Positions 25,651-52,436 of a stretch of DNA of 64,000 nt are shown here, one piece after another (within the stretch, counting starts at the first letter, position 1; each line of letters starts with the position of its first letter). This DNA comes from a virus. The stretch covers positions 32,001 through 96,000 of IMG/VR virus record IMGVR_UViG_3300045988_126112; one strand, written 5' to 3'. The translations under genes and the position numbers were made by a program. The notes under the pieces were generated by a model. It was given only the letters and a program-made list of their open reading frames with translations. It was not told the DNA's origin and did not search any database.

Positions 25651-25670
25651 GTAAAAGTTGATTCTTTCAC

Positions 25671-25688
25671 TTATATATTATAACTATG
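25671..25688 (+). promoter_or_regulatory. Class-A phage promoter-like motif
   Basis: TTATATATTATAACTATG, inside repeat cassette copy 1. Confidence 0.55.
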
Positions 25689-25723
25689 ACATAGATATAT
25701 AATATAAAAAAATATATTGGTAA

Positions 25724-25742
25724 GTATGTCGTGTAGGCATAC
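25724..25742 (+). other. 5'-UTR hairpin in cassette copy 1
   Basis: GTATGTC-gtgta-GGCATAC: 7 bp including one G-U pair. Confidence 0.55.
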
Positions 25743-25755
25743 AAATTATGTCAAG

Positions 25756-25769
25756 TTTTCTATGTTACT
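25756..25769 (+). repeat. Conserved 14-mer TTTTCTATGTTACT (copy 2 of 5)
   Basis: Exact 14-mer 26 nt before the ATG at 25795, followed by TGATATAAT. Confidence 0.8.
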
Positions 25770-25794
25770 TGATATAATAATAAGGAGAAAGAAA

Positions 25795-32435: not shown

Positions 32436-32478
32436 ATTCTATTCAATATCGGTATTTTGTAAAAGTCGATTCTTTCAC

Positions 32479-32496
32479 TTATATATTATAACTATG
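32479..32496 (+). promoter_or_regulatory. Class-A phage promoter-like motif
   Basis: TTATATATTATAACTATG, inside repeat cassette copy 2. Confidence 0.55.
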
Positions 32497-32531
32497 ACAT
32501 AGATATATAATATAATAAAAATATATTGGTA

Positions 32532-32550
32532 GTATCTTATGAAGAGATAC
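32532..32550 (+). other. 5'-UTR hairpin in cassette copy 2 (compensatory version)
   Basis: GTATCT-tatgaag-AGATAC. The inner stem bases differ from copy 1 on both arms but pairing is kept. Confidence 0.55.
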
Positions 32551-32563
32551 AAATTATATCAAG

Positions 32564-32577
32564 TTTTCTATGTTACT
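32564..32577 (+). repeat. Conserved 14-mer TTTTCTATGTTACT (copy 4 of 5)
   Basis: Exact 14-mer 27 nt before the ATG at 32604, followed by TGATATAAT. Confidence 0.8.
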
Positions 32578-32603
32578 TGATATAATAATTTTGGAGGTTT
32601 ATT

Positions 32604-49903: not shown

Positions 49904-50380
49904 ATGAAAAAAAGAGTAAATGTAAAAATTAATGGTCCAATATATACTGTAAGACCTATAATACAAAGAAGTCTTATGAATGTAGAAATGACTGAAGGAG
50001 ATATAAGAAATTGTATATGCTCTAATGCTATGGTTGAAGAAATATTAGAAGATGGTAGTAGAGTTCCTTTAGGATTACACAACTATAATAAAGATAACAA
50101 TAAAAAGAAAAAACCTCAACCTACACCTGTAGTTCCTAAACCTCAACCTCAACCTAAGCCTCAACCTAAACCTGAGCCTAAAAAAGAAACTCCAGCTGTA
50201 AATGTAAAAATAAAAGAGGATAATAGACCTAAAGAAGAAGTTAAAAAAGTTGAACCACAAGTTCAAAAGAAACCATATGTAAAACCTGCTATGGAAATAA
50301 AAGAACAACCAGTTCAACCTAAAAAAGAAGAAGTAAAAGCTGAAGAAGTTAAAAAAGAAACTCAAGAAGAAAAAAAATAA
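49904..50380 (+). CDS. Protein with an N-terminal domain and a Pro/Lys/Glu-rich repeat tail (158 aa)
   Basis: TAAGGAGGA SD. Tail is PQPTPVVPKPQPQPKPQPKPEPKKE... Confidence 0.8.
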   Translation: MKKRVNVKINGPIYTVRPIIQRSLMNVEMTEGDIRNCICSNAMVEEILEDGSRVPLGLHNYNKDNNKKKKPQPTPVVPKPQPQPKPQPKPEPKKETPAVNVKIKEDNRPKEEVKKVEPQVQKKPYVKPAMEIKEQPVQPKKEEVKAEEVKKETQEEKK

Positions 50381-50405
50381 TTTTTGATTCATTCATAACA
50401 AGTGA

Positions 50406-50431
50406 GCTACAAGGATAGTTATCCTTGTAGC
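50406..50431. repeat. Near-perfect 26-bp palindrome / hairpin
   Basis: GCTACAAGGATA-GT-TATCCTTGTAGC with 12-bp arms. Confidence 0.9.
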
Positions 50432-50450
50432 CCTCAGCTTTGTTATTTGA

Positions 50451-50476
50451 CTATTGATATTAATTAATATCAATAG
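50451..50476. repeat. Perfect 26-bp palindrome
   Basis: CTATTGATATTAATTAATATCAATAG is identical to its reverse complement. Confidence 0.9.
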
Positions 50477-50607
50477 GGGAAATATTTAGATACAAATTGT
50501 ATCTATAATATTTAATACATATTATGCTCTTATTTAGAGCCCTCCTATTATTTTAAATACATAGTTCTTATTGCTTGATGGAAGATTATATTATACATTA
50601 TTAATTA

Positions 50608-50646
50608 TTAATCTTCCTCCCATCCCATAGTTTGGTTATCATCCAT
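50608..50646 (-). CDS. Candidate 12-codon micro-ORF (MDDNQTMGWEED)
   Basis: GAGGGGAGGTG lies 5 nt before the ATG on the minus strand, 50 nt downstream of a minus-strand class-A motif. Coding is unproven. Confidence 0.3.
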   Translation of the reverse strand: MDDNQTMGWEED

Positions 50647-50695
50647 GATATCACCTCCCCTCGTTGTTAATATACATTGAAGGAACTATGTATTA

Positions 50696-50713
50696 CATAA
50701 TTATAATATATAA
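50696..50713 (-). promoter_or_regulatory. Class-A phage promoter-like motif on the minus strand
   Basis: The minus strand reads TTATATATTATAATTATG. It lies just downstream of the beta-prime gene stop and points into the ORF-free island. Confidence 0.5.
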
Positions 50714-50729
50714 TTGAAAGAATTAAGTT

Positions 50730-52436
50730 TTACAATTTACCTAATTTAACATCTTTAGTTATATTATTTCCAGGTATATGAATAGTTAAACTATATAAAG
50801 CTTGTATACATTCGTGACTAGGATTTCTTGCATTCTTTCCACCTAAGTTAATATAGTTTTTCTTTGAATTAGCAAATTTTTCTAATTCAGCATTTGCTTC
50901 TTTTGTAAATGCTACTTTAGCTGTAACTTGGTCACCATCATAGTCACCACCTATTGCTTCAAGATATAGATTGGATAGATTTAAAGTATCCATAAATTTA
51001 TTACTAGTATCCTTACCTATATCTTCTTCTCTTATCTTAGGATAATATTTATAAAATGTATTATTTACATACATTGGTTCTGTTTCTTTAGTTGATGATA
51101 CTCTTATTTTTGTAGTAAACTGATTAAAGTAACTATCCATAGGATATCTAGTTATTATTACATTTTTATCTTTAGAAACTTCTTCACAAGCCATAAATAT
51201 TAAATCACACCAAGTTAATCTTCTTCTAAATAATGGTGTAACATCTCCACTATCTTTATTTTTTAAAGCTTCATATTCATCTACAGAATAACCATTAAAT
51301 CTCATCCATACAGTTCTTTTTTCATCTTCTAAAGGAACTTGTATAGGTATAAATCTATTAGAGAATCCCTTCATAAATCTTTCAATTTCTTCTTTTATTC
51401 TTGTATCAGAAAATGCTATTAGAGGGTCTTTTACTTTTAAATATTCAATTTCACCTTTTTTATTTCTTACTGGATAATCTTTTGTACTAAATTCATTTTC
51501 AAAAAATCTTCTTATCCAGAATATAATAAATGGGAATAAGTTTGAGCATAAAGATGATAAAGGTATACATGTATAATCTAGAGTAGTTTTCATATCATCT
51601 AGGCTTTCTACTTTTAATTCTGGTGCAGATAATACAAGTCTAGTACCATAATCTGTAGTTTTAGATAATACTGATTGTCTAATTATACCATATTTTCCTG
51701 ATAATCCTTTACCAGCTTCTTTATCTTTAGAAGTTCCTGTGAACCATTGATATAGTTTAACTATAGTATTTTGTATTCTACCTCTAACAGCATTAGACAT
51801 ATTTAATCCATAATCTGCTGTTTCTTTTAAACTTCTTACTCCTAAGATAAGTTGATTATAAATTTTATTTATTTCACCTACTGTAACATATCCACCAGTA
51901 TTATTTACATCTCTATAATATGCTGGAATAACAAGCATTTGTTTTATAAACATTTTATCCCTAGTTTCTTCTAAGAATTTTATTTTAGTTTCCCTCTTAG
52001 ATGATTCTGTATGTTTAAATTTAATTTTATCAATATTAGCTTTAAGCCATTTAATACCATTATCTCCATTATCATCTTGAACAAATTGTCCGTCTTTATC
52101 TATTATAAATGTATCTGTACCATTTACAACTTCAGATAATTTTCTATCCATACTATTCCATATAATATAATATAATGGATGAATAAAGTATTCACTAAGA
52201 TCTATATAAGCAAATATATTAGCTCTCTGATCTTTAGTAATACCAAAAATTTCATTAGATAAAAGACCATCACTAGTTGGTATATTATCTCTAACAAAAA
52301 ATATTGGATTTGTAATCTCTCTAAGCTTATTCTTCTTTATAAGCTTATCTACATCTAATAAATCAAAATGAGCATGTCTTTCAGCAGCTTCATTTAATGA
52401 TTCTATAGCGTGTCTTTCTAATTCTTCATAATTCAT
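50730..52436 (-). CDS. Multisubunit RNA polymerase beta-prime subunit, N-terminal half (with catalytic loop)
   Basis: EIFGITKDQ...AYIDLSEYFIHPLYY (compare IFGP.KD...GHIELA.PV.H.W), LVIPAYYRDV (compare PVLPPDLRP), LSGKYGIIRQSVLSKTTDYGTRLVLS (compare [25 protein letters not shown]), IGGDYDGDQVTAKV (compare NADFDGDQMAVHV). Confidence 0.85.
   Translation of the reverse strand: MNYEELERHAIESLNEAAERHAHFDLLDVDKLIKKNKLREITNPIFFVRDNIPTSDGLLSNEIFGITKDQRANIFAYIDLSEYFIHPLYYIIWNSMDRKLSEVVNGTDTFIIDKDGQFVQDDNGDNGIKWLKANIDKIKFKHTESSKRETKIKFLEETRDKMFIKQMLVIPAYYRDVNNTGGYVTVGEINKIYNQLILGVRSLKETADYGLNMSNAVRGRIQNTIVKLYQWFTGTSKDKEAGKGLSGKYGIIRQSVLSKTTDYGTRLVLSAPELKVESLDDMKTTLDYTCIPLSSLCSNLFPFIIFWIRRFFENEFSTKDYPVRNKKGEIEYLKVKDPLIAFSDTRIKEEIERFMKGFSNRFIPIQVPLEDEKRTVWMRFNGYSVDEYEALKNKDSGDVTPLFRRRLTWCDLIFMACEEVSKDKNVIITRYPMDSYFNQFTTKIRVSSTKETEPMYVNNTFYKYYPKIREEDIGKDTSNKFMDTLNLSNLYLEAIGGDYDGDQVTAKVAFTKEANAELEKFANSKKNYINLGGKNARNPSHECIQALYSLTIHIPGNNITKDVKLGKL

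What the first reader, a model, noticed from the sequence alone, without database searches (positions are those of the whole stretch)
50381..50729. A 350-bp ORF-poor, GC-enriched, hairpin-dense island between convergent genes: candidate phage structured RNA / micro-ORF locus
This is the longest stretch in the window without an ORF of 60 aa or more, and the only one that is visibly less AT-rich than its surroundings.

Seen directly in the sequence:
1. Five local inverted repeats: 50406-50431 (12-bp arms), 50451-50476 (perfect 26-bp palindrome), 50488-50504, 50526-50540, and 50580-50617 (9-bp stem GGAAGATTA/TAATCTTCC).
2. A 12-bp long-range complementarity, AATACATAGTTC (50556-50567) with GAACTATGTATT (50683-50694). 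It encloses hairpin 5 and two of the C-rich boxes.
3. Three boxes: CCCTCC (about 50539-50545), CTTCCTCCCATCCC (about 50612-50626) and CACCTCCCCTC (about 50652-50662). These are anti-SD-like on the + strand and SD-like (GGAGG) on the - strand.
4. On the minus strand, a full copy of the class-A promoter-like motif (50713-50696). About 50 nt downstream lies GAGGGGAGGTG-ATATC-ATG, opening a 12-codon ORF (MDDNQTMGWEED, 50646-50608) whose 3' end is buried in hairpin 5.

Inference: either a minus-strand transcript carries a leader-like micro-ORF inside a structured RNA, or a + strand RNA carries C-rich motifs that could pair with SD sequences, as C-rich sRNAs do in Firmicutes. I recognise no known RNA family here.
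Basis: partly seen in the sequence, partly recalled or inferred. Interest (0 to 1): 0.78.

Follow-up and report, generated by a model that had tools for sequence, protein, structure and literature searches.

The report
Conserved 12-codon early phage micro-gene
The "empty" gap between two converging jumbo-phage genes holds an unannotated, self-contained early gene on the minus strand that encodes a 12-residue acidic peptide inside a tightly folded mini-mRNA. The same gene recurs across many related uncultured jumbo phages, which makes it one of the shortest conserved phage genes, and its function is still unknown.

Summary
The minus-strand reading is correct and the plus-strand "C-rich sRNA" reading is not.

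The window is an AT-rich jumbo phage with AR9-like split RNA polymerases. Directly after the stop codon of the virion-RNAP beta'-N gene lies an exact AR9-type early promoter (TATATATTAT-6N-G, predicted start 50696, minus strand). It is followed by a strong Shine-Dalgarno (SD) sequence and a 12-codon ORF, MDDNQTMGWEED.

The ORF is kept in every close relative and in many distant ones, with the pattern M-(W/Y)-[D/G]-D-x-x-T-x-G. Its length is 9-22 codons, with in-frame indels, synonymous third-position changes and a good SD each time. It almost always sits just 3' of the same polymerase gene.

The first nucleotides of the predicted RNA pair with a segment beyond the ORF. This long-range stem covaries between lineages. 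A hairpin swallowing the stop codon recurs in about half of the lineages. The remaining palindromes are stacked hairpins between the convergent units.

No Rfam family matches.

Best reading: an autonomous early micropeptide gene on a nuclease-protected mini-mRNA. What the peptide targets is unknown.

The parts
50730..52436 (-). Upstream neighbour: gene for the N-terminal half of the virion RNA polymerase beta' subunit (568 aa). Its stop codon at 50730-50732 lies inside the promoter's upstream element.
   Evidence: phrog_2986 'RNA polymerase beta subunit', E 8e-84. Homologous to AR9 g145, annotated as virion RNAP beta' N-terminus. Catalytic DYDGD is invariant in alignment A1.
50713..50735 (-). 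Upstream promoter element TTGTAAAACTTAATTCTTTCAAT, shared with two other early promoters of the window (25672 and 32480, plus strand).
   Evidence: Read directly. Invariant among close relatives.
50696..50712 (-). Early (virion-RNAP type) promoter core TATATATTAT + 6 nt + G. The predicted transcription start is G at 50696.
   Evidence: AR9 early consensus AAATATATATTAT-(6N)-G+1 (PMC5312081). 17 exact TATATATTATA copies in the window, about a dozen of them just upstream of a ribosome-binding site and start codon; the base 6 nt after TATATATTAT is G in 12 of the 17. Motif enrichment. Present before the micro-ORF in all close relatives.
50683..50694 (-). 5' arm of the long-range stem (AAUACAUAGUUC), nucleotides +3 to +14 of the predicted RNA.
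   Evidence: 12 bp; 1 of 300 shuffles reach it. Used in the MFE fold. Covaries.
50652..50662 (-). Shine-Dalgarno sequence GAGGGGAGGUG, 5 nt before the AUG.
   Evidence: An SD is kept in every relative.
50608..50646 (-). Micro-ORF of 12 codons plus stop: MDDNQTMGWEED.
   Evidence: Conserved with in-frame indels and synonymous changes. 31 family members in fetched loci against 1 in shuffled loci. An RNAP-blind IMG/VR scan again lands next to the same polymerase gene.
50580..50617 (-). Hairpin GGAAGAUUA / UAAUCUUCC whose 5' arm is made of the last codons and the stop codon.
   Evidence: An equivalent hairpin with a different sequence occurs in about 12 of 26 lineages.
50556..50567 (-). 3' arm of the long-range stem (GAACUAUGUAUU).
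50527..50541 (-). Small hairpin GCUCU-AAAUA-AGAGC about 15 nt after the 3' arm. It is a candidate 3' end of the short form of the RNA.
   Evidence: Replaced by different but still complementary hairpins in L009 and L011. The 3'-end role is inferred.
50509..50521 (-). Second, alternative partner for the RNA 5' end (UAUGUAUUAAAUA). It is part of a local duplication of the 3'-arm module.
   Evidence: Inverted repeat I12 and direct repeat D2. L011 has a 17-bp version.
50482..50513 (.). Imperfect palindrome / hairpin around GATACAAATTTGTATC.
50451..50476 (.). Perfect 26-bp palindrome CTATTGATATTAATTAATATCAATAG.
   Evidence: L011 keeps a palindrome with changed outer arms, GTTAGTATTAATTAATACTAAC.
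50404..50433 (.). Strong hairpin (13 pairs), the likely bidirectional terminator shared by the plus-strand P/K-rich gene and the minus-strand unit.
   Evidence: The terminator scan lists it on the minus strand. On the plus strand the same hairpin is followed by CCTCAGCTTTGTTATTTG.. A terminator hairpin is at the equivalent place in all relatives.
49904..50380 (+). Convergent neighbour: P/K-rich 158-aa protein gene, last gene of a virion-protein block.
   Evidence: Synteny with the gene tables of relatives.

Best explanation
The gap contains an autonomous early transcription unit on the minus strand.

Proposed sequence of events (all inferred except where marked):
1. The virion RNA polymerase injected with the DNA starts at G 50696, from an AR9-type early promoter placed right after the beta'-N gene.
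2. It makes a small RNA, about 170 nt if it ends at the first hairpin after the 3' arm and about 290 nt if it runs to the shared terminator.
3. The first 14 nt of this RNA pair with a segment beyond the ORF. This closes the SD, the ORF and the stop-codon hairpin into a panhandle.
4. The RNA is translated from a strong SD into a 12-residue acidic peptide, MDDNQTMGWEED. This peptide is the selected product.
5. The base-paired 5' end and the hairpins mainly protect a very short mRNA from 5'-end-dependent and 3' exonucleolytic decay.
6. The further palindromes are stacked hairpins that separate the convergent transcription units.

Shown here: the promoter match and its recurrence, conservation of the ORF at codon level, covariation of the stem, and conserved synteny.

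Inferred: that the RNA starts and ends where predicted, that it is translated, and that the structures act as stabilisers.

The peptide's target is unknown. Because the gene keeps its place next to the virion-RNAP beta'-N gene over deep divergence, my best guess is an early effector acting on phage transcription or host take-over.
For: Promoter
- It is an exact TATATATTAT-(6N)-G, the same as the experimentally mapped AR9 early consensus.
- There are 17 exact core copies in the window, about a dozen of them just upstream of a ribosome-binding site and start codon; the base at the predicted start is G in 12 of the 17.

ORF conservation
- In 11 lineages found by synteny alone, the ORF keeps frame, start codon and SD.
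- Asp-4 and Gly-9 are invariant at codon positions 1 and 2 while position 3 varies. Mean entropy at positions 1/2/3 is 0.77/0.70/1.25 bits.
- Close relatives differ only by GAT/GAC, GGA/GGT and in-frame 3-nt indels, while the flanks accumulate indels.
- A regex plus SD scan gives 31 hits in real loci against 1 in shuffled loci.
- An RNAP-blind pattern scan of 2.9 million IMG/VR contigs returned 12 short ORFs. Seven lie beside the beta'-N homologue, one lies beside the homologue of the 404-aa virion gene, and one locus (1.2 kb) is too short to tell.
- Presence within 1.5 kb 3' of the polymerase gene: 5/5 at 90% identity or more, 9/11 at 70-90%, patchy below.

Long-range stem
- Helices of 9-17 bp start at +1 to +3 in every close lineage. 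They are rarely reached by shuffles (0-5 of 300 in seven cases).
- The stem is used in the MFE fold of 8 of 10 relatives.
- 78.9% of cells are paired against 63.1% in shuffles. The covariation score is 0.394 against 0.161 (0 of 500 shuffles reach it). Nine pairs changed on both sides.
- G.U pairs fit only this strand.

Other
- RBS accessibility is like that of ordinary genes in the window, 0.46 against 0.50, p = 0.27.
- Other early RNAs of the window also begin with 5'-terminal stems.
Against: - There are no expression data: no RNA-seq, ribosome profiling or peptide detection.
- A 9-22-residue peptide with no signal sequence and no recognisable motif has no obvious mode of action.
- Only the N-terminal nine residues are conserved.
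- The 3' arms in alignment A2 were chosen by complementarity, so the slide control is biased in favour of the stem.
- Unsupervised MAFFT plus RNAalifold on whole transcripts found no pairs.
- The stop-codon hairpin is present in only about half of the lineages.
- The ORF is absent from most relatives below about 55% polymerase identity. It was not found in the parts of AR9 that I read.
Confidence: 0.66

Rival explanations
1. The functional product is the structured RNA: a regulatory or dual-function small RNA. The short ORF serves only to load ribosomes, either to stabilise the RNA or to switch it between two conformations. In the window's clade the 5' end has two alternative 3' partners.
For: - Very strong folding.
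- A covarying closing stem, as in stable non-coding RNAs.
- Two alternative partners for the 5' end at 50556-50567 and 50509-50521, with a 17-bp version in L011.
- The stop codon is buried in a hairpin in about half of the lineages.
Against: - Sequence outside the ORF, SD, promoter and arms is not conserved and varies from about 110 to 220 nt.
- Conservation is codon-like and acts on amino acids.
- No Rfam family matches.
- 5'-terminal stems are a general trait of this phage's early RNAs, not a special feature of this one.
- RBS accessibility is ordinary.
Confidence: 0.2
2. The ORF is a leader or attenuator peptide. Ribosome progress through the micro-ORF, possibly by nascent-chain stalling on the acidic residues, decides whether transcription reads through the hairpins into the antisense of the late virion genes.
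For: - The short ORF overlaps a hairpin.
- The peptide is conserved at its N-terminus with a variable tail, as in some arrest peptides.
- There is a stack of hairpins downstream.
Against: - No gene follows on this strand in the window or in most relatives.
- There is no run of regulatory codons.
- In many relatives the ORF is followed directly by a canonical terminator with a U-tract.
- The cassette works as a unit in either orientation (L004, L024).
Confidence: 0.06
3. A plus-strand C-rich small RNA pairs with SD sequences, as RsaE/RoxS does in Firmicutes.
For: C-rich boxes are present on the plus strand. The plus strand also folds well, z = -5.5.
Against: - No early-promoter motif faces that way in the region.
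- RsaE scores 16.7 bits against a gathering score of 79.
- The C-rich boxes are complements of a conserved SD and ORF.
- G.U pairs in L011, L016 and L022 would be A.C mismatches on this strand.
Confidence: 0.03
4. Nothing specific is here. The region is a convergent intergenic spacer full of terminator hairpins, with a chance ORF.
For: AT-rich DNA gives many short inverted repeats. Shuffles reach a mean best helix of 7 bp. One terminator-like site was found.
Against: - The ORF, SD and promoter are kept across relatives whose polymerase is only 42-60% identical.
- There are 31 hits in real loci against 1 in shuffled loci.
- The stem shows compensatory changes.
Confidence: 0.02

Closest known systems
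AR9 / PBS1 early transcription units driven by the virion RNA polymerase (Lavysh et al. 2017, PMC5312081)
   Same: The promoter architecture is identical: AT-rich TATATATTAT, then 6 nt, then G+1. The phage type is the same (split multisubunit RNAPs). 5' UTRs with conserved motifs are reported for AR9.
   Different: In AR9 these promoters precede ordinary genes. No 9-22-codon gene has been described there, and I found none in the AR9 stretches I read. The polymerase subunit is only about 32% identical.
Bacterial leader peptides of attenuators and arrest peptides (trpL, hisL, ermCL, mgtL, MifM)
   Same: Size range of 8-30 codons, own SD, ORF overlapping an RNA hairpin. The acidic C-terminal EED recalls the DEED stall site of MifM (my own knowledge).
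   Different: There is no downstream gene to regulate and no regulatory codon run. The unit has its own promoter and terminator and occurs in either orientation.
Dual-function small RNAs (RNAIII/hld, SR1/SR1P, SgrS/SgrT)
   Same: A short structured RNA that also carries a translated small ORF.
   Different: Those peptides are 26-43 aa and the RNAs have conserved base-pairing seed regions. Here only the ORF, the SD and the closing stem are conserved.
mccA, the 7-codon microcin C precursor gene (my own knowledge)
   Same: An extremely short, real protein-coding gene followed closely by a hairpin that shapes its transcript.
   Different: MccA needs a C-terminal Asn and an adjacent MccB adenylyltransferase. 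Here the C-terminus is variable and no modifying enzyme gene is adjacent.
5'-terminal stem-loop stabilisers of Firmicute mRNAs, which protect against RNase J1 and 5'-end-dependent decay (ermC, aprE leaders; my own knowledge)
   Same: Base pairing begins within 1-3 nt of the 5' end.
   Different: Here the partner lies 100-200 nt downstream, beyond the whole coding region, giving a panhandle rather than a local hairpin. More distant relatives use local 5' hairpins instead.

Membership tests
AR9-type early (virion-RNAP) promoter | Consensus AAATATATATTAT-(6N)-G+1 | tested here: met
   Window minus strand 50712-50696 reads TATATATTAT AATTAT G. Consensus taken from PMC5312081. The three bases upstream are AAT rather than AAA.
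AR9-type early (virion-RNAP) promoter | The motif recurs in front of genes of the same genome | tested here: met
   17 exact TATATATTATA copies, about a dozen just upstream of a ribosome-binding site and start codon; G at +1 in 12 of the 17. Enrichment of 15 against a shuffle mean of 4.8.
AR9-type early (virion-RNAP) promoter | Mapped primary 5' end, active early and without protein synthesis | not testable with these tools
   There are no transcript data for this uncultured phage.
Translated small ORF (micropeptide gene) | SD at functional distance from a start codon | tested here: met
   GAGGGGAGGUG, 5 nt, AUG. An SD precedes every family member.
Translated small ORF (micropeptide gene) | Reading frame and amino acids conserved, with synonymous variation and in-frame indels | tested here: met
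   Asp-4 and Gly-9 are invariant with a variable third position. L010 has a 3-nt deletion. L011, L015, L016 and L018 have one extra codon.
Translated small ORF (micropeptide gene) | Ribosome occupancy or detected peptide | not testable with these tools
   Needs Ribo-seq or targeted mass spectrometry.
Transcription-attenuation leader peptide | A structural gene or operon downstream on the same strand under its control | tested here: not met
   Only hairpins and the 3' end of a convergent gene follow.
Transcription-attenuation leader peptide | Mutually exclusive terminator and antiterminator structures overlapped by the ORF | tested here: inconclusive
   A hairpin covers the stop codon in about 12 of 26 lineages. 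Two alternative partners for the 5' end exist in the window's clade only.
Rfam RNA families, including the C-rich sRNA RsaE/RoxS | Covariance-model score at or above the gathering threshold | tested here: not met
   No hits in the whole window at gathering thresholds. Best sub-threshold hits: rli24 23 bits against 100, RsaE 16.7 bits against 79.
Type I toxin-antitoxin | Hydrophobic toxin peptide of about 20-60 aa plus an overlapping antisense RNA promoter | tested here: not met
   The peptide is acidic and hydrophilic, 9-22 aa. There is no convergent promoter motif opposite the ORF.
Arbitrium / RRNPP-type phage signalling peptides | A precursor of about 40 aa with an export signal, and an adjacent receptor gene | tested here: not met
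   There is no signal sequence and the ORF is only 12 codons. The neighbours are the RNAP beta'-N gene and virion-protein genes. Release by lysis and uptake by a peptide permease cannot be excluded.

The most novel reading that the evidence does not exclude
The 9-22-residue peptide is a dedicated micropeptide partner of the phage's own transcription machinery. It could be, for example, an early-made regulator, an assembly cofactor of the virion RNA polymerase, or the trigger of the early-to-late switch. That would explain why this tiny gene has stayed glued to the beta'-N gene while everything around it was rearranged. It would be among the smallest functional viral proteins known and the first micropeptide component of a phage multisubunit RNAP system.
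Probability: 0.12. Interest if true: 0.88.

Novelty: new variant of a known kind. Interest (0 to 1): 0.62.

Why it matters
Gene callers cannot see ORFs of 9-22 codons. None of the gene tables for the contigs looked up by protein lists this ORF. Here comparative data show one that is as well conserved as its large neighbours. It has its own early promoter and a covarying mRNA structure, and it spans a large group of uncultured gut, rumen and digester jumbo phages.

It adds a candidate early effector to a phage group whose take-over biology is largely unknown. It also gives a clean test case for micropeptide function in phages. Finally, it shows that this phage's early RNAs systematically begin with a base-paired 5' end, which bears on how these phages protect their transcripts.

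Tried and rejected
Searches that found nothing:
- Rfam at gathering thresholds on the whole window, and at permissive E-values on the region: nothing usable.
- tRNA/tmRNA scan: none.
- DNA similarity to GenBank phages: no match.
- Two literature searches for phage micropeptides or minigenes: nothing relevant.
- A scan of the AR9 stretches I fetched (the first 50 kb and the stretches on either side of the end of g145) and of one 7.5-kb stretch of Listeria phage LPJP1: no family member.
- A scan of the window's six-frame translation for a second copy of the peptide motif: only this one.

Analyses that failed or gave no difference:
- Unsupervised alignment plus RNAalifold of nine whole transcripts predicted no pairs, because the arms are not alignable automatically. 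A hand-anchored alignment was needed.
- Special sequestration of the ribosome-binding site: RBS accessibility equals that of ordinary genes.

Ideas rejected:
- The 3' arm as a convergent early promoter. Read by eye on the opposite strand, the TATATATTAT core is not kept at the right distance in L015, L018, L021 or L022, and the AR9 enzyme is reported to be intolerant of deviations.
- The arms as recombination sites of an invertible segment. In L004 and L024 the whole cassette, including the promoter, is inverted, not the segment between the arms.
- The peptide as a leftover linker between the beta'-N and beta'-C halves. The gene that follows in L001-type relatives is not a polymerase subunit.
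- The region as a replication origin. It sits at a convergence point of transcription and GC skew.

Not attempted: a protein-database search with the peptide. Even an exact 12-mer cannot reach significance in a database of that size.

Full report
**What the window is.**
The window is 26.2% GC. It encodes split multisubunit RNA polymerase subunits, a major head protein, a GroEL-like chaperonin and a primase.
- The 568-aa minus-strand ORF 50730..52436 matches PHROG 2986 at E 8e-84.
- Its best cultured relatives are AR9/PBS1-like jumbo phages of Bacillus, Listeria and Staphylococcus, at only 32-35% identity.
- In AR9 the homologue is g145, annotated as the N-terminal half of the virion RNAP beta' subunit.
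- No tRNA, no Rfam family and no DNA-level match to GenBank phages was found.

**The observation.**
The finding covers the 349-bp gap between the plus-strand P/K-rich ORF 49904..50380 and the minus-strand polymerase gene.
- All five local inverted repeats and the 12-bp long-range complementarity are present.
- Folding is much better than in dinucleotide shuffles on either strand, z from -4.3 to -6.6.
- The gap is the longest internal stretch without an ORF of 60 aa or more.
- It is not GC-enriched. It has 26.4% GC against a window mean of 26.2%, and is only about 1.2 SD above the other intergenic gaps.
- The plus-strand 'C-rich boxes' are complements of the minus-strand SD and of G-rich codons.

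**The promoter.**
That promoter was mapped experimentally as AAATATATATTAT-(6N)-G+1 and assigned to the injected virion RNAP (PMC5312081).
- The window has 17 exact TATATATTATA copies. About a dozen lie just upstream of a ribosome-binding site and start codon, and the base 6 nt after TATATATTAT is G in 12 of the 17.
- The longer motif is enriched, 15 occurrences against a shuffle mean of 4.8.
- The copy at 50712-50703 (minus strand) predicts a start at G 50696.
- Its upstream element TTGTAAAAnTnnATTCTTTCAnT, which contains the polymerase gene's stop codon, is shared with the promoters at 25672 and 32480.

**The micro-ORF is a conserved gene.**
Protein search found polymerase homologues from 96% down to below 60% identity. 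I fetched their contigs and further loci from IMG/VR, metagenomes and GTDB genomes.

In every close relative the same gap holds, on the polymerase strand, the promoter, an SD and a short ORF:

| Locus | Peptide |
|---|---|
| window, L009, L032, L034 | MDDNQTMGWEED |
| L010 (in-frame 3-nt deletion) | MDDNQTMGWED |
| L011 | MYDDNQTMGWEDED |
| L012 | MDDYNTTGSED |
| L015 | MWDDFDTCGEY |
| L016 | MWGDNETSGEY |
| L018 | MWGDNNTEGEED |
| L019 (TGT/TGC synonymous in L020, L035) | MGDNEGCGG |
| L021 | MDDFNTCGEFTPAKKLNI |
| L022 | MDDFNTIGYDTPLK |
| L024 | MGDHSTGGYED |
| L028 | MDDFSAVGNE |

- In these synteny-defined lineages, Asp-4 and Gly-9 never change at codon positions 1 and 2, while position 3 varies.
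- Mean entropy is 0.77, 0.70 and 1.25 bits for positions 1, 2 and 3.
- Among near-identical relatives the ORF shows only synonymous changes and in-frame indels, while the adjacent UTR and hairpin loops accumulate indels.
- A regex plus SD scan of all loci gave 31 hits against 1 in shuffled loci. It added MDDFESVGCEQ, MDDNLTYGTEDDE, MDDTQTIGVEY, MDDNMTIGTED, MDDNQTVGTTHD and MDDSEVVGTYGD.
- A looser scan added MGDGFGGFVD, MFGDGFGGSLCD, MGDGFSGGTFDETCNK and MGETIGVRH.
- A polymerase-blind DNA pattern scan of IMG/VR gave 17 hits, 12 of them short ORFs. Of these, 7 lie beside the beta'-N homologue and 1 beside the homologue of the 404-aa virion gene. One locus is too short to tell.
- Presence within 1.5 kb 3' of the polymerase gene is 5/5 at 90% identity or more, 9/11 at 70-90%, 3/6 at 55-70%, 7/30 at 45-55% and 4/18 below 45%.
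- The two misses at 70-90% are rearranged or truncated loci. L024 carries the cassette after the inverted virion-gene block.
- In L004 the whole cassette is inverted within the same gap.
- None of the contig gene tables returned lists the ORF.

**The RNA structure.**
- Every close lineage has a helix of 9-17 bp starting at +1 to +3 and ending beyond the ORF. In most lineages outside the window's own clade it ends 10-30 nt before a terminator hairpin.
- The arm sequences differ between lineages:
  - window AAUACAUAGUUC / GAACUAUGUAUU
  - L012 GCAUAGUUAUAGAU / AUUUAUAACUAUGC
  - L015 UGCAUACUUA / UAAGUAUGCA
  - L021 GUAUAAAGAUAUU / AAUAUCUUUAUAC
  - L022, 16 bp
- Shuffling the downstream sequence reaches the observed length in 0-5 of 300 trials for seven sequences, and more often for the 9-bp cases.
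- RNAfold uses this stem in the MFE of 8 of 10 relatives.
- On a hand-anchored alignment, 78.9% of cells pair against 63.1% in shuffles. Nine pairs changed on both sides. The covariation score is 0.394 against 0.161, reached by 0 of 500 shuffles.
- G.U pairs in L011, L016 and L022 fit only the ORF strand.
- Caveats: the arms were picked by complementarity, and an unsupervised alignment found nothing.
- A hairpin whose 5' arm is made of the last codons and the stop codon recurs with unrelated sequences in about 12 of 26 lineages.
- More distant relatives replace the long-range stem with a local 5'-terminal hairpin.
- Other early RNAs of the window also begin with 5'-terminal stems. A paired 5' end therefore seems to be a general rule for early transcripts of this phage.
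- RBS accessibility of the micro-ORFs is the same as for ordinary genes, 0.46 against 0.50, p = 0.27.

**The rest of the gap.**
Positions 50381-50555 hold a small hairpin after the 3' arm, a duplicated copy of the 3'-arm module (direct repeat D2 and inverted repeat I12), an imperfect palindrome, the perfect 26-bp palindrome and a 13-pair terminator hairpin next to the P/K-rich gene.
- These are conserved only in the window's own clade. L011 keeps the palindromes with changed arms.
- I read them as stacked hairpins between the convergent units. This extra material is why the gap is unusually long here.

**Interpretation.**
The best-supported reading is an autonomous early micro-gene.
- It comprises a virion-RNAP promoter, a nuclease-protected mini-mRNA and a conserved acidic micropeptide.
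- The peptide's function is unknown.
- The persistent linkage to the virion-RNAP beta'-N gene suggests a role in phage transcription or early take-over. That step is inference only.
- Rivals are listed with their weights: structured or dual-function RNA, attenuator leader, plus-strand C-rich sRNA, and chance.
- It is not a member of any Rfam family, of the attenuator leader peptides, of type I toxins or of arbitrium-type signals.

**Verdict.**
This is a real, previously unannotated feature and a new micropeptide gene family with an unusual panhandle mRNA. Interest is moderate to high. Confidence in 'conserved translated micro-gene' is about 0.65-0.8. Confidence in any specific peptide function is low.

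Noticed in passing
window 25660-25790 and 32468-32600 (+): Two copies of a structured leader of about 120 nt sit behind exact early promoters that share the finding's upstream element. The RNA 5' end GACAUAGA pairs with UCUAUGU about 85 nt downstream. An internal hairpin shows compensatory differences between the two copies. Each copy precedes an SD and a gene.
   Followed up: partly
window 1194(+)/1227(-) and 32968(+)/33004(-): Two exact early-promoter cores face each other on opposite strands, about 33-36 nt apart, at two places in the window. They would give convergent, overlapping starts.
   Followed up: no
window 8322, 19301, 27992, 40188 (+): Early promoters are followed by a shared 5'-UTR motif, G(U/A)AAUAAAAUAAUA. 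This recalls the unexplained early 5'-UTR motif reported for AR9.
   Followed up: no
window 11032, 15680, 55990 (+): The predicted early RNAs begin with local 5'-terminal hairpins, for example GAUAGAGAAAUCUAUC. A base-paired 5' end looks like a general property of this phage's early transcripts.
   Followed up: partly
L135 about 5190-5010 (AR9, KU878088 about 118,190-118,010, minus strand): AR9 has an unannotated SD plus a hydrophobic ORF of about 60 codons (MWGFKINLLEGLLLIILILL...). It lies directly after the virion-RNAP beta'-N gene g145, in the convergent gap to g144. It is not related to the micropeptide.
   Followed up: no
L024 4735-7260 and L033 5698-6604: In two relatives at about 70% identity, the block of virion-protein genes (404, 92 and 206 aa) is inverted and abuts the polymerase gene. 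In L024 the micro-ORF cassette stays convergent with the P/K-rich gene and is preceded by a 44-aa ORF.
   Followed up: partly
L028/L029 5154-5787: A 634-nt version of the gap carries two further SD-preceded small ORFs (MVYRFLTAET from TTG, and MIKLIKNFLRTKEKT) upstream of the family member MDDFSAVGNE.
   Followed up: no
L112-L116 (GTDB genome contigs): Relatives of this jumbo phage are binned into MAGs labelled Succinivibrionaceae, Tenericutes, Izemoplasmatales, Eubacterium and Spirochaetaceae, including contigs of about 245 kb. These are probably phage genomes mis-binned into MAGs, so they give no reliable host.
   Followed up: no
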